Part shown: positions 9,277 to 44,344 of the stretch, piece by piece
How the letters are laid out: each line of letters starts with the position of its first letter
How positions within the stretch are numbered: position 1 is the stretch's first letter
Source of the DNA: Eledone cirrhosa
Taxonomy: Eukaryota
Direction: 5' to 3'
Assembly: GCA_964016885.1 (NCBI GenBank)
Contig: OZ024741.1
Location: 230,950,001 to 231,014,000, forward strand
Length of the DNA: 64,000 nucleotides
The notes under the pieces: generated by a model
The model's database searches: none
Told to the model about the DNA's origin: nothing
The model's input: only the letters and a program-made list of their open reading frames with translations
Program-made: the position numbers and the translations under genes

Positions 9277-12200
9277 ATGGAGACTGGAATGTCATGTGAC
9301 AGACTCTCACCCAGCAGGTGCTCCCTGGCTCAGCAGCAGGGACCTGGCTGTCAACCAAATACTGCTGGTGTCGGAGGAAGAAGAAGAAGGAAAGGGACCA
9401 GAATCAACTGGATGAAAGAATTGAATAGAACTGTTATGCAATGTTACCTGAAGAGTAACCCCAAAGAAAAATGCTATAGGAAACGGATGCATAACATCTG
9501 GAACGAGATTGGTCTATTTAAATTAGATGAAGAAAAATTGGCCGTGCAAGCTCGGGTAATAAGAAGTAATGGGTGGATAAGCGAGCTGAAACTGGAGGAA
9601 CTGAGCAGAGAGATTAGGTTGGAAATGGAGAGTGGAGTATACCAGGCAAACGAGCCAGTGGGAAATGAAGGTGAAGAGGTTGAGAGAACGGAGGAACCAT
9701 CCGAAGCTGACAATTATCTGAATGCTGAAATAAATAATACCTGGAACAAAGATACGGCCATTGAGGAGATGAATGCTGACGGGCTAGGACAAAATTTGGT
9801 TGATATCCTAAACTTAGTGGTAGATGAATTTAACAATGATAGTGGGAAATCTATGAACCTAAGATTTGTAAACAAAAAACAGTTAAAAGAAACAACAGCT
9901 AAGGTAAACAAAGTCATCCCATACCTTGAGTCGAGGAGCCTTCACCAGTGCAACAATATCCACAAAGCAACAGCAAATGCGGTGAGGAAATTACATGGCA
10001 TAAAACATAGAGGAAACAACAAACAAAAAAAATCAGAACATTGGTGGAAGAAACGACTGAATGGTCAAATCAGGGAAATGAGAAATAACATTGGAAAGCT
10101 TGAGTCCCTACTGAATGGGACACTATAAAAAAAAGACACTAAAATTAGACTGGAAATAAAGTACAAAACTAGGAGGAAAAAGCTAAATTTATCATAGAGG
10201 AACTGAAGCTACGCATTGTAGCAAAGAGTGCAAAAATTAGGCGATACGAGAGCAGAGTCAGTAAGTATAGACAGAACCACATGTTTGACAACAACCAGAA
10301 AAAGTTGTTTGGACAGCTTGAAGGGAAAGAAAGAGGCTACGATTTGATCCCTGAGGCGGAACGAACTAGGACATTCTGGAGAAGAATATGGGAGTAGGGT
10401 GTTAAACATAATGACCAGGCAGTGTGGATTGAGACAGTACAAAAGGAGATTAGTGAACAGGCACACCAACAAACTGATTTGAGTATCACAGTTGAAATTC
10501 TTAAGGGGCAGGCCAGAAAACTAACCAACTGGAAATCACCAGGCCCAAATGTTGTGCAGGGGTATTGGATTAAAAATATAACATCCCTCAACACGAAATT
10601 GACAACCATGTTCAATGACTGCTTGATGTCAGGTGAAGTACCAGAGCGGTTGACAAAAGGTACCACAGTTCTGGTAATGAAAGACCGAATCAAGGGTAAT
10701 GATGTTACCAACTATAGACCTATCACATGTCAGACCGTAATGTGGAAACTGTTGACAAGCATTGTGTCTGAGGAAATATACCATCACCTCCACACAAACA
10801 ACTTGTTACCCGACGAACAGAAAGGATGCCGAAATAAGTCCCGTGGTACAAAGGACCAGTAACCTATTGATAAAATGGTAATGAGGAATTGCAATAGGAG
10901 ACACACTGGTCTTGCCATGGGATGGATAGACTACAAAAAGGCATTTGACATGGTGCCTCATTCTTGGATCTCCAAAAGCCTAGAGATCTTCAAGGTGGCA
11001 GATAACATCAGACAGTTGTTGGGCAAAAAGTATGAAGTCCTGGAAAACAGAGTTAACATCAGCTGGAGAATCATTGGGAGGCGTGAAGATCAAGAGAGGT
11101 ATCTTCCAGGGAGATAGTCTGTCCCCTCTGTTTTTTGTCCTTGCCCTGATTTCCTTGACCATTATACTGCCAGAGGTGAAAGCAGGATACAAGTTGGGAA
11201 AGGGAGAGCTTACCATCAATCACCTCCTCTTCATGGACGATCTTAAGCTCTTCGGGAAGAGTGAGAAGGAGTTGGATGTGCTTGTTGACACCGTCCGTAT
11301 TTTCAGCAATGATATATGTATCCAATTTGGTATTAGTAAGTGTGGAGTCCTTGTGATGAAGAGGGGTAAATTGAGCAGAAGCAACGGAATCCAGGTACCA
11401 ACAGGTGAGATGATAAAGGAAATTGACACTGAAGAAGGATACAAGTATTTGGGTGTTCTGGAGGCTGATAGCATCAAGAACAAAAAAAATGAAGGAATTG
11501 ATCAGATCTGAACACATTCGGAGAGTAAGGAGCGTATTAAAGTCACATCTGAACAGTAGGAATGCCATAAGGGCAGGAAATTCCCGTGCTGTGTCTATTA
11601 TCAGGTACAGTGCGGGAATTCTGAGATGGAATGTTGCTGAACAAAAAGAAATGGATAGGAAGACTAGGAAGCTATTGACTATCTACATGTTCCACAAGAG
11701 GAGTGATGTCGATCGACTCTACTTAAGGAGATCTGAAGGTGGAAGAGGTCTTATCAGCATAGAGGCCTGTGTTCAGGTGGATACAACAACCTACACAAAT
11801 ACGTGACTGATAGTAAGGAACCAATGCTCAGAATTGTACTGAAGGAGAGGACAATAGACCAGGTGATGTTCAAGGAGGAAATAACAACAAGGAGAAAGAG
11901 CACACTTCATGAAAATTCCCTTCATAGTACCTTCTTTGAGAAAACTGAATTCAGAGATCCACAGACATGTACTGGTTGAAAAGAGGGGACCTTAAAAGGG
12001 TTACAGAAGGAATGCTAATGGCTGCGCAGTAGCAGGCCCTCACAATGAAGTTGTTGAAACACCATATTTTCAAGGAGGAGGCTAGCCCACTGTGCAGGAT
12101 CTGTGGAGAGAGAAAGGAGACTGTGGCTCACATTGTATCCGAGTGTAAACACCTAGCTCAGACTCACTATAAAGGCTGGAGACATGATGTGATGGGCAGG

Positions 12201-12598
12201 GTGATCCACTGGCACCTATGCAAAGTAAACAATTTACCACATTCTGAGAAGTGGTATAAGCATAAGCCAGAGTCGGTGATAGAAAACGATCAGGTGAAGT
12301 TGCTGTGGGATTTTAGGATACCGACGGACAAGAAACTTGAACACAATAGACCTGATCTGGTGGTTTTGGACAAGGAAAAAAGATCGTGCCTGATTGTGGA
12401 TGTGGCCTGCTCATTCAACACGAGAGGAAAGAGAAGGAGAGGGAGAAAATTAACCGATACCAGGACTTAAACTGGGAGGTAAAAAGAAAATTCGCCGTGC
12501 CCCGATACGTCCTGAATATCTGAGGTTGCAGGTAAAGGCTTGATCTTCATTTCAACAAACTTTCCAGTTAAATAACATAAATGACTGAGACTCAAAAA
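9277..12598 (+). mobile_element. R4/Dong-type RLE LINE, family B, copy 1 (degenerate)
   Basis: N-terminus METGMSCDR..W..ELNRTVMQCYLKSNP, RT ([20 protein letters not shown]), CRIC..ETVAHIVSEC, RHD, RPDL..VD. Deletions near 12490; (AAT)n tail. Confidence 0.92.
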
Positions 12599-12599
12599 C

Positions 12600-12630
<31 letters not shown>

Positions 12631-15600: not shown

Positions 15601-18187
15601 GCGTGCATCTAAGATCCCGTTCCACTAACACTAAAGAGCGGGACGTTCCAAGAAAAGTCTACAGACGCCCGAAGAAATCAGGCCGTCCTGCTGCTGTCGG
15701 GGCATAGACGGCCACTAACCTGGAAGCTTTCCCGTCTCCGCTGGTCACGTCCAGCACCACCAACTTACCTTCTGGGTCCAGGAAGATGGCCCGTATGGCA
15801 AGATCAAAACTTCTCCGAAAAAGCGCAGCAACTCCTCCCCCCGATCCCGGACGGCTGGGGGATGCGTACACATCGTAGCCGACGAAGATCGGTGCGAAAG
15901 CCCGTGCTTCGGAGATTCTGGCTCGCTGATGGCCACTACATCTATGTTTAGTGATCTGAGGTCGTTGAGCAGATGGCCCTGCTTCAATGACGACCCCAAG
16001 CCACGCGCATTTGTGCTGCCTATTCTGAGTGAGGTCATGTTGAAATGGAGTGGAAAAGATGGGAAAGACCACTTACCTTACTTCTCTTAGAGGAAGGATG
16101 GTTTCTCCATCCTTTTCACTGCTTTTGGCCTCCTCAGGAAGGATGTCCTTATAAATCCTCCTGGAGAGTACTTCTCGGAAGGCTCCGATGTCTTTGGGGA
16201 ATTCTTGTTTTAGTGTCATGTACGTTTTCTGGGTGATGCGAGTGATTTGTATGTATGGAGGCGGTGTGAACTTTCGGGTTGTTGTGTAGTCTTTTTCTGT
16301 GATGTTGGTGCTGGTGTTGTGTAATAATTGGTTGTTGTTCGAATTTAATGCTGTGTAGTGTGTATCGTTTTGGTTGTTTTGTTTTGTTTGCGTTTGTTGT
16401 GGGTTTGTTTCTGTTTCACATTTTGGTGACTTTTGTGGTGTAGGTGATGGTGGTGTTTGGGTTAATAATGGTGATGGTGTTGGTGTTTGGGGTGATGGGG
16501 TTGGTGATGCTGGTGTGGATGGTGGCCTGTCTGACCTAACTTTTTTGTTTGATAGTTTATTTGTTTCCCTCTGTATTTTGGTTTTGGAGGGGGAAGGAAG
16601 AGAATTTTTTTCTTTTTTGATTTCTTTTTTTCTTTTTTCCTGATACCGTTTCCCACTCCTCGTCGTCACAATCTGTCGGAAAATCCTCCAAAGGCGTTAG
16701 TTTTGGTTGTGGGGTGGTGGATGGTGTAGGCGCTGGTGCTAGTTCTGGCGCGTTGGGAGGTGGTGGTGTTGGTTTTGCTACTGTTGCTGGGATGGTGCTG
16801 TTACAGTTGCTTCTGTTGTTGCTGCCATCTCTGCCGGTGGTGGTGTTGATGGTTGAGTCACTGGGGTGGGTAGGAAAGGTAGCCTCAACCTTTTAGCCTA
16901 AGGGCAGAAAGCCCATAGGTGGGTTCCTTCACCACAAACGACACGCCTAGGCCTTCTGTCCTCAACAATTACGGTGAGGTGGCTGCCGTCAGTGAGGTCT
17001 ATTACCGCTGGGATGTCATCAATGCTTTTTTGGTCCGCTTGGATCAGGAGCTCCATCCCAGATCCGGACCAGTTCTCCTGCTATTCTTTCGCTATTTCGA
17101 TTATCTTGGTGCTGGCTTCGATGCCGGCGAGGACGGTAGCTATTAGCCAGGGAATTTCGATGGCCGGTGGAACGTGGGTGACCCTGATCTTTATGAGTCA
17201 CTGGCCACAATAGCTTGGGACGAATGTGAAGTCGTCACTTCTTAATGGGGCCATCAGGTCTTCTCTAGCCTCCTGTGGTGTTTCAAAGAACTCGTCCACG
17301 CTTCCATACTTCTGCCCACGTCTGATGTGGTTTTTCTTTGCCCACACATGTCCCAAAGCTTTTTGGATTTGTAATTCGGATGCCCGTTCCACTCGGCGCG
17401 ATTTTATATTAATTGTTCGAAAAGACACGGTGCATAGGCGCCGATGCTCCATTTTATTAGGTGGGGGGGTGAGGCTGACCCTGTACCCATCTTTCCTTAC
17501 CATTTTGTTGGCTGCTTCTAATTCCTCCTGAGTTACCTGAAATGCTTCGCACTGTTTTGCTACTCTGGCAAAACTCAGGGTGGTTTTCTTAATGTCATTG
17601 TTGCTGTTCTTGTTATCGTTATTTTTGTTATTATTAATTTTAGTTTCAGTTGTGGTGGTGGTGGTGGCGTCAGTGGTATTCGGTGTGGAAGAGTTCATTT
17701 TGGTTGAATTCATTTCGATATAACGAGTTAATTTATTTTTTTCTTTTGTTTCTGTTGTCGCGGTGATGGTGGGGCTGGTGGTTGTCGTGGTGGTGGATGT
17801 GGTGGCGGCTTTAACACCTGCAGTCATTGGTAATGGAGGGAAATGAATGTCTGACTGAGACAAATTTAAAATATTGCTACTGCTTATATTTTTTTTAGTG
17901 TTGGCAAACGTAGTAATATTTACAATGGTGGTGTCGGTGTGAGGTGTTAGTTTGTGAGAAAGGAGTGACTCTGAGTCAGACATGATGTTTCAAAAAAAAG
18001 TTTTGATTGATAATTATAAAAGTTTTAATTTCGGGCTCAAGGGCCCAATCTTTTTCGGTGTCCCTTTGAGATAACAATGTATGTGCACTTATATACAATT
18101 AACAATAACATTTTCCATGAATGGCAATTTTGAACAACTGAAAATAACAAACCTTTCCGGAGCTCACGAGTTACTACGTAGGTTGCC
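12631..18187 (-). mobile_element. Tx1/L1-clade LINE, family 1, full-length outline (ORF1 17983-16073, ORF2 16038-~12900, disrupted)
   Basis: ORF1 starts MSDSES and has a CX2CX4HX4C knuckle (~16945-16905). ORF2 has AP endonuclease (NARGL, VYAP, YLD, TDH) and RT (QGCTLS, YADD). AATAAA at 12639-12644 (-). (TTA)n at both ends. Confidence 0.92.
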
Positions 18188-18214
18188 AATAATAATAATA
18201 ATAATAATAATAAT

Positions 18215-19149
18215 GATACGTGGTGGATAGAGTGTTATGGAATCGCTCCCGTAAGTTTTGACTTTTTACATATTTAAAACTATTGTGATAGAATAATTCT
18301 TATTACAAATGGGACATAAGGCACCAGCTTAAGCTCCCAGGAAGTGAGAATCTGTATTTAATTTTGTATTAGAAATTTTATATTCAAAAGAGTAAATGGT
18401 TACAATTGGAAGAAAAAACCCTCAGTGTACACTCAATACAACAGCCAAATAATTTCACCACCAGCGCCACCACAACCAACACCACCACCAACAACACCAC
18501 CATCACCACACAGGTGTGTGGTTTGTGGCGAAGGAACCCACCTAAAGACTGTTTGCCCTCAGGCTAAAAAGTTGAGTCCTCCCCTCCTACGCACCCAGTG
18601 ACGCAACCATCAAATCCACCAGCAGCAGAAATGGCATCAACAACAGAAGCAACTTAGCAGCAACATCCCCATCAACAGTAGCAAAACCAACACCATCACC
18701 CACCGTGCCAGAATTCCCACCAGCGCCTCCACCATCCACCATGCCACAACCAAAACCAACGCCTGTGGAGGATTTTCCACTCTCCGACCTATCCCAATTG
18801 GAGACAGATTGTGACGATGAGGAGGAATGGGAGATGGTATCAGAAAAAAAAAGAAAACGAAAAAAAGAACACAAAAAAGAACAAATCCGTTTCCTTCGCC
18901 CCCCAAAAACAAAATGCAGGGGGAAACAAATAAGCAAACAAACAAAAAAGTTAAGACAGCTATACCACCACCCACACCAGATTCACCAGCCCCATCACCA
19001 CAAACACCAACACCATCACCATCATTAACATACAACCACCATCACAACACCACAAAAAGCACCAAAAAGTGAAACAGAAACAAACCCACAACAAACGCAA
19101 ACAAATCAACCCAAACGATACACACTACGCAGCATTAAATTTGAACAAC
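18215..19149 (+). mobile_element. Chimeric, internally deleted Tx1 5' fragment (5' UTR plus ORF1 zinc knuckle and C-terminal half)
   Basis: RCVVCGEGTHLKTVCPQAKK from ~18511. 18511-19149 is an inverted homolog of 16335-16950. Confidence 0.8.
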
Positions 19150-19349
19150 AAGGGCGGTGAATTGACAGTATCGGTTGAGGGTCCGACGCCATGCTTTAAC
19201 GCATAGAGTTACGGCCCTTGCCATTCTGAGTTCAAATCCCGCCGAGGTTAACTTTGCCTTTCACCCTTACGGGGTCGATAAAATAAAGTACCAGTAATGC
19301 GCTGAGTCATTGCTGGCCTTGTGCCAAAAGTATAAACAATTATTATTAT
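19150..19349 (+). mobile_element. tRNA-derived SINE
   Basis: A box, B box gagttcaaatccc, core and (TTA)n tail. Confidence 0.9.
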
Positions 19350-19700
19350 CTCACGGAGTTGAGAAACAGAGCCCCAGCTATAAACTGGTTTTTGCCAGTC
19401 CCTGACAAAAACAGAATCAACCACCATCATCCTCAGCATCTACAATTGATGGTCTGAGCACAAATCCTGCCTAAGTCAGTCGCTGGCCCTGTGCCAGATG
19501 CAGATACAATTATTATTATCATCAGCATCTACCATTTATGATCCTAGCACAAATCCCGCCGAGATCAACACCGCTCCTCTACGGGGTCAACAAAACAGAG
19601 CACCAGCAATCCACCGGGCCAATCGCCGACCCTGTTCGAAAAGCAGAAGCAATCATTATCATCAGCATCACCACCACCAACATCAATTATCATTTCCATT
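19350..19700 (+). mobile_element. Three partial, T>C-hypermutated SINE copies
   Basis: Align to the SINE 3' half, e.g. tacggggtcaacaaaacagagcaccagcaatccaccggg vs tacggggtcgataaaataaagtaccagtaatgcactggg. Confidence 0.8.
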
Positions 19701-19963
19701 TTCATTTTTCGATGGTAGTAGGTGGTTTTCATTGTAATGTTTGAATGTCTGACATTTTTCGTTCTTTGTTTTTCAAGGCCAGTAACATCGGTTACTAGTA
19801 TTGCTGTTGCTGCTGGTGTTTTTTAATGTTAGCTACGCTAAGCTCGTAGTCAGAGCAACGAGAGAGGTAGGGGGTGTTGCGTTCACAATTTGGGAATTTT
19901 GTTTTTCTTTTAATGTTGCGTTTGTTTTTGTCTGTGTTTTGTCCTGTAATTTCACGACTTGTT

Positions 19964-20147
19964 TGGCAGTATCGGTAGAGGGTCGGACACCATGATTTGC
20001 AGCAAAGAGTTACGGCCCTTTATAGTCTGATTTCAAATCCCGCCGAGGTTAACTTTGCCTTTCATCCTTACGGGTTCGATAAAATAATGTACCAGTAATT
20101 CACTGAATAATTGTTGGCCTAGTGCCAAAAATAGAAACAATTATTAT
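19964..20147 (+). mobile_element. tRNA-derived SINE
   Basis: Same A/B boxes, core and tail as the other copies. Confidence 0.9.
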
Positions 20148-20189
20148 GCAAGTTGACATCGTTTGAACCAAAAATGTTGAAAGAGCTTA

Positions 20190-20546
20190 GAGATACAACG
20201 ACAATAATTATTGTTATTATGGTGTTGTTGTTGGCTATGCCGGTGGTGCTGATGCTTTTTCCGAAGGGAGGAGGAAGAGTTTTAATGTTGGTGGGGTACT
20301 TCAATGCCACTGGAGCTGTTCATTGTGGGATGATCAACATTTTCTTTTGACTGGGTAACTAAATCAGTCTATTTATATATTTTGGGAGCTTCTTCCTTTC
20401 TAGTCTTGTGTAGTGGTACTACAATCTTCCTTCTCCTTAACAGAAGGGGGTGAGGGAATAGTGGTGGTAGCAATGATAGAGTGGTGACGGTGGTGATGGG
20501 GTAGTGGTACTATAGTGATGGTGTTGTTGCCGCTGTTGGTTTTCCT
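20190..20546 (-). repeat. Inverted homolog of the 590-960 / 25070-25430 segment
   Basis: Reverse complement shares cactacacaag.ctag...aaaatatataaatagactgatttagt.acc and gcaccacc...atagccaacaacaac. Confidence 0.7.
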
Positions 20547-23500
20547 CTAGCTAAATTTTGTGGTGTATCGCATGAGGTGGAGATTGTCGTGTATGGACCT
20601 GGATGGGATTGCGCAAGTTTGCGCTTTCCCAACCAAATCCTCGACGACAACCGCCAATCTCTTTGCTAACACCTTGACCAAAATCTTAAACTCTGTGTTG
20701 AGCAGAGTTATGGGCCTGCAGTTGTCTAATGTATCCCTCTTGTTCTCGTCTTTCCTTATCAGCGTCACCACTCCCCTGCTCACAGAACTGGGAATACTCC
20801 CATTCTGCTGCCAATTGCAGTATAGTGCTTCGAGGAGATATGAGAACAAGTCTGGCGTATTTACATAACGTTCGTAGGGCAGGCCATCCAAACCGGGTGA
20901 CTTGCGCCTCCTGCAGCCGACAAGTGCGGCCTGAATTTCGGCTGAAGTAATCGGCCTTTCGCAGCGCTCAGTGTCGACCGAGGAGATGCGCGGCAAACCG
21001 TCAAGGTAGGGACTGAAATCCGCTACTCTCTCTGACACACCATTCTCCCCGAACAACCGAACAAAATGATGGCAAAAGGCCTCACACAATCGCTTGGAAT
21101 CGCTTATCTAGTGTCCGTCTCGGTCCGCCAAAGACAGAATTGTGGATTTATTACCACGCTGCGCCTCCGCCACGCGGGCTCTTCGAACAGCTTTCGTTCC
21201 CTCGTTTCTCAGCGCACGCACCTTGGCTCTGACAATGGAACCTTAGTGTTTCGCATTGAAGAAATGGTCTAATGGCATTCTCGCCGCTAGCACATCAGTT
21301 GCAATGCCACTACAAATAGCCTCGAGTAACTTATCTACCAGCTCCCCCTCCTTTCTATTTTTCTCTAACGCTAGTTCTTTGCTGAACTCTATCGAAGATT
21401 CTCTAATCTCTCTTTTGAGATCCTCCCACCATCTGTTGTTGATGATCTCTGTCAACTTTTGCTTAATTAAATTGTTGACTCGGTCCCTGCAAGCCTTACG
21501 GGCCGGAAATGACATGTTCAGCTTCCACTAACCCGGTCCCAACCTACGCGTTTTATCTAGGTCGACCATACAGATCACACATTTGTGATCTGAATTGGGG
21601 ACCGTTTCAAAAAGTGGGGAGCCTACACTATTTCTATCTATTTTCCTAATGAAGTACCTGTCTATATACGATCTAGATGATCCCATGCGCTTGGTCCATC
21701 TCCATACTGGCGCATTGGGGAAAACTAGTCGATACCTGTCAGACAGATGGAACTGACTGATTAATGGTTGAGGCTTTTGCACACCCCAAAGCTACTATCA
21801 GCTATTCCCACACAATCCCAGCGTGCGTCTAAGAGGCGGTTCCAGTCCCCCGCTAACAGTAAAGGGCGAGACGTACCCAGAAAGGTCTCCATGGTCCCTG
21901 AAGATCGACCTTACCTCGACATTCAGTCCTTTCCAAAACAGCACTGCTACCCCACCTCCCATTACCGGCCTGCTCACAGATGCGAAGATCTAATAGTCGA
22001 CGAAAATGGGGGCTAGTGCGCGTGTGTCAGAAATCCTGGTTTCGCTGACTGCAATTACATCTAATTCCAGCGACTTGATGTCGTTGAGCAGGCGACCCTG
22101 CTTCCAGGGTGACCCAGGCCGCGAACATTTAAACTTCCTACTCTTAATATGGCCATGTTAGCAAGCTAAAAGAGAGAGGGAGGTTTACTTACCTCCCGGG
22201 GTCTTGTGAAGGTGGACGGTTCGACCTCCATGGTTGGTGGGGTTTCTTTTTGGAACCCCTTTAAAAGTCTCGATGTGGGTTTCACTTTCGGGTTCCCACG
22301 TCTTGAGGAAAGCTCTCCCGAATTTCTTTGTAGCAATCGAGCGACATTCGGACCAGAAGCAAATCTTCTGGCACGAAAAATGGGCTCATTTCAAAGATCT
22401 CACCCTCTGTTTGAATGTCCTCGCTTCGGGCTAAGAGGGCCATCAGTTTTTCGTTGGCCCTTCTGACAAGCACGAAGTTTTTATCATTTTGTTGGTGTGG
22501 TTTTATTTGTTTTCGTTTTGGTGACTGTTTGTTGTAGGTGTGGTGATTGCAATTTCAGGGATTTGTATGTTTATTTGTACTTGTGTTTGTTTATGTTGTT
22601 TGCGTTTAGAGGATTGTTGGGGTGTTGTCGATGTGGCTGTTGGTGCTAACGTTATTGGGGAAGTGGTTGCGTTAGTGGTGTCTGTATTCTTTTGTTCAGT
22701 ATGTTTTTGTGTTTTGTTGGGGCTTTTCTTGTGAGTTTTCTCTGTTTTCTTTTTGCACTTTTGGGTTTTCCCTCATCTTCGCTGCTGGAAGACAAAGGGT
22801 CTGTGGCTGTGAGTGTCTCTGTGTCTGTGTGTGCGTTTATTGTTTTGTCTATGTGTATAATTTGTAGGGGGTGTGGGAGAGCTTTCCTCGTTTTCCCCTT
22901 GGATTGGTTTCGGTGTTGGTGGTGGTCCGGTTGTTTTTGATGTTGGTGTCCGTGTCTTTGTTGGTGTTGTTTTTGGTGGTGGTGGTGCAGCTTTCCGTGC
23001 TGACACTGGCGTTGGCAACAAAGGAGGTGTGCGACCCCCTGCATGTTTGCGCTGAGGGCAGAAGTCTTGGAGATGTGTTGCTTCCCCGTAGACGAAGCAG
23101 TGCGGCCTCCTTCAGTGATTAGTTGGATTGTTGTCCTGTCCTGCAGGCGGGCAAAATCTGGAATGTTGTTCATGTCCTCTGGTTTCATTTGGAGAAGAAT
23201 CTCCAAACCCATTCCGGACAGTCTTCTCTCTCTGTCCTTTTGATATCCAGGAGGGTAGTGTCTGTCCCTCTCGATTACGCATCCCAGGAGCCACCATATG
23301 TTCATTCCTGGTAGGATGCTGGGAATGCGGATCCTTACTGTCCTTTTACCCATGTAGGACGGGTGCATGATAATGCGTTCCATTCTGCAGGGTTTCACCG
23401 AGTGCTTAATAGCAAGGGCCTCGGTTTTGAACAGTACCTAGATGGTACCGAACTGTTTGGCCCTTGCTTTATACTCTATGTCACTTCCGATGCACTCCAA

Positions 23501-43847: not shown

Positions 43848-44145
43848 AAGGGCGGTGAATTGACAGTATCGGTAGAGGGTCGGACGCCATGCTTTGACGC
43901 ATAGAGTTACGGCCCTTGCCATTCTGAGTTCAAATCCCGCCGAGGTTAACTTTGCCTTTCATCCTTACGGGGTCGATAAAATAAAGTACCAGTAATGCGC
44001 GGGGTCATTGCTGGCCTTGTGCCAAAAGTATAAACAATTATTATTATCTCACGGAGTTGAGAAACAGAGCCCCAGCTATAAACTGGGATAATTGCCGGTC
44101 CCTGACAAAAGCAGAATCAACCACCATCATCCTCAGCATCTACAA
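43848..44145 (+). mobile_element. SINE (43848-44047) followed by a hypermutated SINE fragment (44048-44145)
   Basis: Paralog of 19150-19445. Confidence 0.85.
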
Positions 44146-44344
44146 TTTTTTTCAAGGCCAGTAACATCGGTTACTAGTGTTGTTGTTGCTGCTGGTGTTT
44201 TTTAATTTTAGCTACGCTAAGCTCGTAGTCATAGCAACGAGGGAGGTAGGGGGTGTTGCGTTCACGATTTTGGAATTTTGTTTTTCTTTTAACGTTGCGT
44301 TTGTTTTTTGTCTGTGTTTTGTCCTGGTAATTTCACAACTTGTT

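What the first reader, a model, noticed from the sequence alone, without database searches (positions are those of the whole stretch)
19350..19700. Strand-biased T>C hypermutated SINE patch: possible DNA fossil of ADAR A-to-I editing
SEEN: three partial SINE copies follow an ordinary SINE. Aligned by eye to the local consensus over 19580-19653, about 10 of 17 T are C (gataaaataaagtaccagtaatgcactggg > aacaaaacagagcaccagcaatccaccggg; attgctggccttgt > atcgccgaccctgt; agtagaaac > agcagaagc). There are only about 2 A>G, 2 G>A and 3 transversions. The (ATT)n tails have become (ATC)/(ACC)n. The neighbouring SINEs at 19150 and 19964 show no such bias. Part of the patch recurs with the same changes at 44048-44145, so it is not a read error and predates the duplication. 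KNOWN: ADAR hyper-edits A>I in dsRNA made by inverted repeats, disfavours a 5' G neighbour, and is exceptionally active in coleoid cephalopods; reverse transcriptase reads I as G. INFERENCE: T>C on + equals A>G on the - strand, the sense strand of the adjacent Tx1 element, downstream of it. A hyper-edited RNA may therefore have been reverse-transcribed into the genome, writing RNA edits into heritable DNA. Many changes are at TA (UA in the RNA), which CpG decay cannot explain. The 5'-G avoidance rests on too few sites to weigh.
Basis: partly seen in the sequence, partly recalled or inferred. Interest (0 to 1): 0.78.

Follow-up and report, generated by a model that had tools for sequence, protein, structure and literature searches.

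The report
RNA edits inherited through jumping genes
Pieces of a short repeat (SINE) carried inside several retrotransposon families of this animal genome show 30-60% A-to-G change on one strand only, confined to the paired stem where they form a hairpin, which likely means that RNA edits made by ADAR were copied back into germline DNA and inherited many times over.

Summary
Observation confirmed: 10 of 17 T>C at 19580-19653, neighbouring SINEs clean. The patch is not unique. It is part of the 5' leader of a dispersed R2/R4-like LINE (34 of 40 inspected copies adjoin its 5' end), not of the Tx1, and T>C equals A>G on that LINE's RNA. The oldest subfamily differs from the SINE by 17/34 T>C against 0/35 A>G. 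After the lineage deleted the patch, it captured new antisense SINEs that changed the same way (49 of 63 loci). A second carrier family holds an inverted SINE pair: both arms carry A>G on one strand (64/124 A; 46/107), the loop hardly any (5/76), with no compensatory change; 21 of 22 single-SINE copies of that carrier are clean. Adenosines after G are spared (6/40 vs 91/222, p=0.0013). No abundant C-rich SINE subfamily exists (21 vs 119,883 matches). Best reading: ADAR-edited RNAs were retrotransposed in the germline, repeatedly (0.87). Not shown: edited RNA reads, the enzyme, or the pairing partner of the leader copies.

The parts
19152..19346 (+). Young full SINE, unchanged (T>C 1/52); inferred to have inserted after this copy's last passage through RNA
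   Evidence: 0-6 such SINEs at this place in other copies
19350..19424 (+). F1: 3' SINE fragment (SINE positions ~115-190), antisense in the LINE leader; T>C 7/16 in this copy
   Evidence: still T at several of these sites in the oldest copies
19425..19447 (+). F1 tail, (ATT)n turned to (ACC/ATC)n, and linker
   Evidence: sequence
19448..19527 (+). F2: short piece that joins the 5' part of F3 to the 3' part of F1; read as an internal duplication, absent from the oldest subfamily
   Evidence: T>C 4/10 in its 3' part
19528..19657 (+). F3: oldest captured SINE fragment (SINE ~63-190); T>C 15/29, A>G 2/36
   Evidence: 33 copies pooled 516/1099 vs 75/1160
19658..19700 (+). F3 tail, (ATC/ACC)n
   Evidence: sequence, shared by the family
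19700..19958 (-). Non-SINE part of the LINE leader, A-rich on the RNA strand yet without A>G gain (0/142 A in leader positions 3-602 between oldest and youngest patch-bearing groups)
19963..20147 (+). Young SINE, unchanged (T>C 0/51)
20148..20546 (-). Further upstream module of the LINE leader
   Evidence: same order in other copies
44038..44147 (+). Tandem-duplicate copy of F1 and tail only; 19448-19768 is missing there
9330..12630 (+). A separate, younger copy of the carrier LINE body (RT, C-terminal cysteine-histidine and nuclease-like motifs, (TAA)n tail); the patch at 19350 has lost its own body

Best explanation
SINE pieces that sit inside mobile retroelements here carry strand-specific A>G changes, confined to paired sequence, which were likely made as A-to-I edits by ADAR on the element's double-stranded RNA and then likely fixed in germline DNA when reverse transcriptase read inosine as G. 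Shown: SINEs insert antisense into AT-microsatellites of the LINE leader; only SINE-derived sequence changes; the change is A>G on the carrier's RNA strand; it spares A after G; it recurs in independent captures; in hairpin copies both arms change on one strand and the loop does not; SINEs that dropped into dead copies stay clean. Inferred: the RNA duplex (in cis for the hairpin family; with free SINE RNA or a flanking inverted SINE for the leader copies), the enzyme, and the germline timing. Edited daughters that became new source elements passed the changes on, so a lineage collects edits over rounds.
For: Oldest subfamily F3: 17/34 T>C, 0/35 A>G, p=4e-7; youngest patch group 21/35 vs 2/36. 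34 of 40 patch loci adjoin the LINE spacer/ORF on the opposite strand; the body's majority line has no stop in 3149 nt, which fixes the RNA strand. Patch deleted in a nested clade (SH-aLRT 99.9); a three-site T>C pattern then finds 65 matches, 49 of 63 loci in the same leader at a new site. Nine captures judged independent by junction: 97/262 vs 4/273; 5'G 6/40 changed vs 91/222, p=0.0013. Hairpin family, 5 dispersed copies with different 5' ends: long arm A>G 64/124 paired, 5/76 loop (union 19/25 vs 1/15, p=4e-5), T>C 0/107 in its paired part; short arm T>C 46/107, A>G 1/124; 13 sites changed in only 1-3 of 5 copies. Same carrier with one SINE: 1 of 22 changed, the rest 5/862 vs 4/776. Changes at TA 37/68, so not CpG-driven. 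PF02137 domains at 4 loci. 5'G depletion is the ADAR motif (PMC4365171, PMC5625713, passages).
Against: No edited RNA was seen and no unedited hairpin parent was found (4 of 4 junction matches are changed copies). No long perfect stem within the leader itself, so its partner strand is unshown. The 3' neighbour favours G (32/59) over A (22/78), whereas PMC5625713 (passages) reports A preference downstream for invertebrate hyper-editing. The stepwise gain in F3 along the lineage (rho 0.65, p=0.001, 21 copies) is lost when TG sites are left out (rho 0.22, p=0.33). Five of the nine captures were picked for >=4 T>C or by a T>C pattern, so the pooled ratio is inflated; F3, F1 and the hairpin long arm were not so picked. 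All sites come from one 190-nt SINE, so context counts are not independent. The long arm has only 2 GA sites, 1 changed. The LINE ORF shows no synonymous A>G excess (10/286 vs 5/256, p=0.31).
Confidence: 0.87

Rival explanations
1. The reverse transcriptase itself errs towards A>G when it copies through double-stranded template, with no deaminase involved.
For: Would also need passage through RNA and could be confined to stems; non-synonymous A>G in the ORF is in excess while the patch was present (11/815 vs 0/379, p=0.02).
Against: About half of all A change and almost nothing else; 5'G is spared; at least two unrelated carriers give the same pattern. I recall no RT with such a spectrum (own knowledge).
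Confidence: 0.05
2. Another deaminase or chemical process acts on DNA or on the RNA:DNA hybrid during insertion (for example ADAT-like or ADAR on hybrids, or adenine deamination in extruded DNA hairpins).
For: PF02137 also covers ADAT1/ADAD-type proteins (own knowledge), and 4 loci match.
Against: Deamination of the first cDNA strand would give the opposite polarity; single-strand damage would hit the loop, which is spared (5/76, one site); a genomic cruciform would change both strands, but one strand only changes.
Confidence: 0.04
3. The fragments are relics of an older C-rich SINE, or were shaped by selection (loss of complementarity to SINE RNA, or an antisense reading frame) or gene conversion.
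For: The patch is multi-copy and old (terminal branches 3-15%); one antisense frame is open over 360 nt in two group majorities; the lineage later deleted the patch.
Against: 21 exact matches of the C-rich 16-mer vs 119,883 of the ordinary one; 9 of 10 new matches are ordinary SINEs with 2-3 chance changes; F1 is T in the oldest copies and C later; young SINE subtypes captured later change too; A>G leaves G-U pairs and is not compensated, which fits neither conversion nor selection on pairing.
Confidence: 0.03
4. Sequencing or assembly artefact.
For: Clustered same-type mismatches can be a sequencing error (PMC2873906, passages); one search did not isolate the patch letters in raw reads because SINE flanks swamped it.
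Against: The same changes recur in dozens of dispersed copies that otherwise differ by 10-25% and follow the ORF tree.
Confidence: 0.01

Closest known systems
ADAR-type A-to-G hypermutation of avian retroviruses (Rous-associated virus, avian leukosis virus; seen as passages in review PMC12925331)
   Same: A>G at nearly half of the adenosines, in an inverted-repeat region, carried into DNA through reverse transcription.
   Different: Those are infectious retroviruses; here the carriers are non-LTR retroelements, the changes are fixed in the host genome, amplified by source lineages and repeated in several captures and families.
APOBEC DNA editing of LTR retrotransposons (PMC4866542, PMC2873906; passages)
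   Same: Clustered, strand-biased, motif-dependent changes preserved in genomic copies of retroelements.
   Different: G>A from cytidine deamination of cDNA, vertebrate LTR elements; invertebrates served as negative control there. Here A>G, tied to RNA pairing, in non-LTR elements.
ADAR hyper-editing of repeats in animal transcriptomes, very high in octopus (PMC4365171, PMC5625713, PMC9068888; passages)
   Same: Dense A>G in SINE duplexes, G depleted upstream.
   Different: Known as RNA-versus-DNA differences that are not inherited; here the marks are in DNA. Downstream neighbour favours G here, A in the invertebrate motif reported.
R4/Dong clade non-LTR retrotransposons (PMC3774820, passages; clade features otherwise recalled)
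   Same: Single long ORF, RT closest to R2 structures, C-terminal zinc-knuckle and nuclease-like motifs, (TAA)n end.
   Different: Long leader that repeatedly captures SINEs; clade placement, target-site duplications and 5' ribozyme not established here.

Membership tests
ADAR A-to-I hyper-editing signature | Dense single-class A>G change on one strand | tested here: met
   17/34 vs 0/35; 64/124 and 46/107 with all other classes <=6%
ADAR A-to-I hyper-editing signature | The changed strand is the transcribed strand | tested here: met
   LINE strand fixed by its ORF; second carrier has a fixed 3' end and variable 5' ends. Not known for the third carrier and singletons
ADAR A-to-I hyper-editing signature | Confined to double-stranded regions | tested here: met
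   Met for the hairpin family: paired 19/25 vs loop 1/15 sites. For the leader captures the partner is unshown, though adjacent non-SINE sequence is spared
ADAR A-to-I hyper-editing signature | G depleted 5' of edited A | tested here: met
   6/40 vs 91/222, p=0.0013; F3 alone 1/6 vs 22/30, p=0.016
ADAR A-to-I hyper-editing signature | 3' neighbour preference (G in most vertebrates, A in invertebrates per PMC5625713) | tested here: inconclusive
   G 32/59, C 27/67, A 22/78, U 16/58: fits the general motif, not the invertebrate one; sites from one short sequence
ADAR A-to-I hyper-editing signature | Inosine or RNA-DNA difference observed in RNA, dependent on ADAR | not testable with these tools
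   No RNA run was available for the stretch
ADAR A-to-I hyper-editing signature | ADAR-type deaminase genes in the genome | tested here: met
   PF02137 over cut-off at 4 loci; domain also covers relatives, dsRNA-binding domains not checked
APOBEC-type DNA editing of retroelements | G>A clusters on the sense strand | tested here: not met
   G>A and C>T at background
R4/Dong clade LINE (carrier) | Single ORF with RT of the R2 group | tested here: met
   No stop in 3149 nt; RVT_1; best PDB hits are R2 proteins, E 6e-21, L1 1e-7
R4/Dong clade LINE (carrier) | C-terminal CCHC motif and restriction-like nuclease; (TAA)n association | tested here: inconclusive
   Motifs read by eye (labels recalled), zf-RVT below cut-off; (TAA)n end seen
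R4/Dong clade LINE (carrier) | Phylogenetic placement with R4/Dong; target-site duplication; 5' HDV-like ribozyme | not tested
   No reference tree built; Rfam found nothing in 17900-20600
   Constant neighbour is the R2/R4-like LINE; Tx1 pieces come and go

The most novel reading that the evidence does not exclude
ADAR acts as a recurrent germline mutator in this lineage: any retroposing RNA that picks up a SINE duplex is edited and written back, so the genome keeps a dated, site-resolved fossil record of A-to-I editing across several element families, and editing pressure drives a cycle of SINE capture, A>G erosion and deletion in LINE leaders. The same route could fix edits in retrocopied host genes.
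Probability: 0.6. Interest if true: 0.9.

Novelty: new variant of a known kind. Interest (0 to 1): 0.82.

Why it matters
A-to-I editing is treated as a non-heritable change. These loci suggest it is written into the germline genome repeatedly, in what is probably the animal group with the highest editing levels. They give DNA-only evidence that ADAR meets retrotransposon RNA in germline cells and that heavily edited RNA can still be retrotransposed, a question PMC9068888 (passages) calls unexplored for cephalopods. They also give a simple genome screen (one-strand A>G in both arms of a hairpin, loop spared) that can be run on any assembly to date editing activity and motif through time.

Tried and rejected
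Tx1 as carrier: rejected. One-off local event: rejected. LINE-wide A>G bias that switches off after patch loss: looked strong in raw counts (22 vs 3) but is p=0.07 after base composition (21/1128 vs 5/651) and absent at synonymous sites; not claimed. 5'G avoidance in the ORF: explained by coding constraint (synonymous 4/188 vs 22/655, p=0.48). First mirror pattern gave 0 matches but was too strict; a fairer one gave 4, three hairpin arms and one new A>G-rich SINE, so the 65-to-0 contrast is not used as evidence. L124/L157 and L163 as pre-editing states: set aside as likely recombinants with young SINEs. Rfam and tRNA scans: nothing. Sequencing runs: no RNA holder listed; laying four runs on 19150-20150 was swamped by SINE copies and says nothing on the patch letters. 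Global alignment of flanks was too noisy and was replaced by reference-anchored local alignments. Atlas look-up only returned RT-family clusters. Earlier scan notes: none relevant. L042, L045, L082 left out of groups as chimeric; L095, L133, L146, L151, L153, L155-L157 left out of patch counts; L236, L237, L239, L240, L258 dropped as repeats of loci already held, L257 as mis-oriented.

Full report
Observation. Against a SINE majority line from 44 full copies, 19580-19653 has T>C at 10 of 17 T, A>G at 2 of 25 A and G>A at 2 of 16 G; the flanking SINEs have 1/52 and 0/51 T>C. 170 ordinary copies (of 300 hits; >=84% identity) show T>C 1.03% and A>G 1.10%; that identity filter would hide heavily changed copies, so it describes the background only. 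The duplicate at 44038-44147 covers 19340-19447 only and is part of a ~24.5-kb tandem duplication.

What the patch belongs to. A genome search gave 49 matches from 40 scored candidates, and a second query returned largely the same places, on 9 contigs. In 40 ten-kb loci the order is constant: LINE body on the minus strand, a spacer, 0-6 young SINEs, the patch, then non-SINE modules that match 19700-19958 and 20148-20546; 34 of 40 have spacer or ORF next to the patch. The body matches window 9330-12630, has a stop-free majority frame of 3149 nt, an RT closest to R2 proteins and a (TAA)n end; I call it R4/Dong-like from recalled features, untested by phylogeny. So the patch is three antisense SINE pieces (F3, F2, F1) in this LINE's 5' leader, and T>C on plus is A>G on its RNA. 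Tx1 pieces are inconstant neighbours. In this window the body has been lost.

History in the lineage. The tree of ORF and non-SINE columns from 55 copies is comb-like. In the oldest group F3 differs from the SINE by 17/34 T>C and 0/35 A>G (p=4e-7); in the youngest patch-bearing group by 21/35 and 2/36; 33 copies pooled give 516/1099 vs 75/1160. F1 still has T at positions 133 and 144 in the oldest copies and C later (6/17, then 8/17). Non-SINE leader sequence gains no A>G (0/142 and 1/68). The rise in F3 with ORF age is significant (rho 0.65) but not without TG sites (rho 0.22), so stepwise gain rests mainly on F1. A nested clade (SH-aLRT 99.9) deleted the whole patch. Direction of change rests on group majorities.

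No C-rich SINE subfamily. The ordinary 16-mer has 119,883 exact matches, the F3-type one 21; 11 were known leader loci, and of 10 new ones 9 are ordinary SINEs with two or three chance changes and 1 is a leader locus.

Independent repeats. A pattern with three T>C changes gave 65 matches in 63 loci; 49 lie in the same LINE leader, in later sublineages, at a new site. They fall into captures X1 (25 fragments), X2 (16), Y1 (20), Y2 and a single one. X2, Y2 and the single capture carry most of their changes outside the pattern: 9/26 vs 1/27, 13/46 vs 0/40, 12/41 vs 0/37. Of the 14 other loci, 4 belong to a hairpin family, 4 share a third small carrier, 3 are singletons with 6-19 T>C and no A>G, and 3 look like old ordinary copies.

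The hairpin family. A small element with a fixed 3' end and variable 5' ends (RTE-derived by recalled motifs) carries a full SINE and an inverted 3' half. Five dispersed copies were found. On the element's RNA strand both arms show A>G: long arm 64/124 A in the paired part against 5/76 in the loop (one site), short arm 46/107; the partner bases stay unchanged (0/107, 1/124), so pairs become G-U and the stem still folds. Nineteen sites are changed in 4-5 copies and 13 in 1-3 copies. Of 22 copies of the same element with a single SINE, 21 are clean (5/862 vs 4/776); one antisense copy has 14/46 vs 0/40. No unedited parent was found: 4 of 4 junction matches are changed copies.

Context. Over nine antisense captures, with pattern-fixed sites left out, T>C is 97/262 and A>G 4/273; adenosines after G change at 6/40, others at 91/222 (p=0.0013); after U 37/68, so CpG effects do not explain it. 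Upstream G depletion is the ADAR motif (PMC4365171, PMC5625713; passages). The 3' neighbour favours G, not the A reported for invertebrates. Five of the nine captures were picked for T>C, the F3 and F1 rows were entered by hand, and all sites come from one short sequence.

Mechanism. Shown: one strand, one class, SINE-restricted, stem-restricted where a stem is visible, recurrent, and absent from SINEs in copies that show no sign of later movement. Inferred: ADAR edits the duplex, the RT reads I as G, and edited daughters become sources. For the leader there is no long internal stem; free SINE RNA or a flanking inverted SINE is the likely partner, and the changed (ATT)n tails fit pairing with a whole SINE end. 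PF02137 domains occur at 4 loci. The ORF shows no synonymous excess. No RNA data were available; read-level support for the patch letters is open. That the animal is an octopus is inferred from recalled SINE likeness and genome size, not shown.

Comparison. Avian retroviruses with nearly half their adenosines changed in an inverted repeat are the closest precedent (PMC12925331, passages); APOBEC fossils in LTR elements are the genomic analogue (PMC4866542, PMC2873906; passages). Eight searches returned no report of inherited ADAR marks in non-LTR elements; the library lacks most subscription papers and matches words only, so this is weak evidence of absence. PMC9068888, PMC3774820 and PMC8382921 were seen as passages; other listed papers as search listings only; no supplements were opened.

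Verdict. Real, stronger than first read, with the carrier corrected. ADAR edits fixed by retrotransposition 0.87; new variant of a known kind; interest 0.82.

Noticed in passing
window 1-52000: The window is largely a ~24.5-kb block of nested LINE pieces repeated two to three times at 90-96% identity.
   Followed up: partly
L130-L152: A younger LINE clade deleted ~500 nt holding the whole patch, then later sublineages captured SINEs again at another leader site; a capture-erosion-deletion cycle is possible.
   Followed up: partly
L031-L050, L080-L099, LINE leader: The leader is a strong hotspot for young SINE insertions (0-6 in tandem), almost all antisense to the LINE; (ATT)n versus (TAA)n tail polarity may explain it.
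   Followed up: no
window 19345-19700 family majorities: One frame antisense to the LINE has no stop over 360 nt in two group majorities; probably a by-product of T>C at TA sites.
   Followed up: no
LINE ORF, oldest to youngest patch-bearing group: Non-synonymous A>G 11/815 vs T>C 0/379 (p=0.02) while the patch was present, not afterwards (12/1663 vs 5/786); unexplained.
   Followed up: partly
L217, L218, L231, L233 around 1350-1750: A third small carrier element with T>C-rich SINE pieces; polarity and family unknown.
   Followed up: partly
L185:1377-1564, L207:1384-1565, L265:1425-1563: Single heavily changed SINEs with no recognised carrier: 19/46 T>C, 12/44 T>C, and an A>G-rich copy inside an inverted tandem-repeat frame.
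   Followed up: no
L197:1492-2269: Long inverted duplication holding two copies of an already changed SINE piece, same changes in SINE orientation, so duplicated as DNA.
   Followed up: no
L241-L263 around 1690-1950: The second carrier has a short natural palindrome with an AT-rich centre that takes independent SINE insertions of several subtypes.
   Followed up: no
L272-L273 (G000:C6:13644405-13646174): A PF02137 deaminase domain lies in a 700-aa open frame without introns, unlike the split matches at the other three loci.
   Followed up: no
L032, L033, L049, L112, L113, L116: Tx1-like elements often sit at or inside the 5' end of this LINE, suggesting a preferred target.
   Followed up: no
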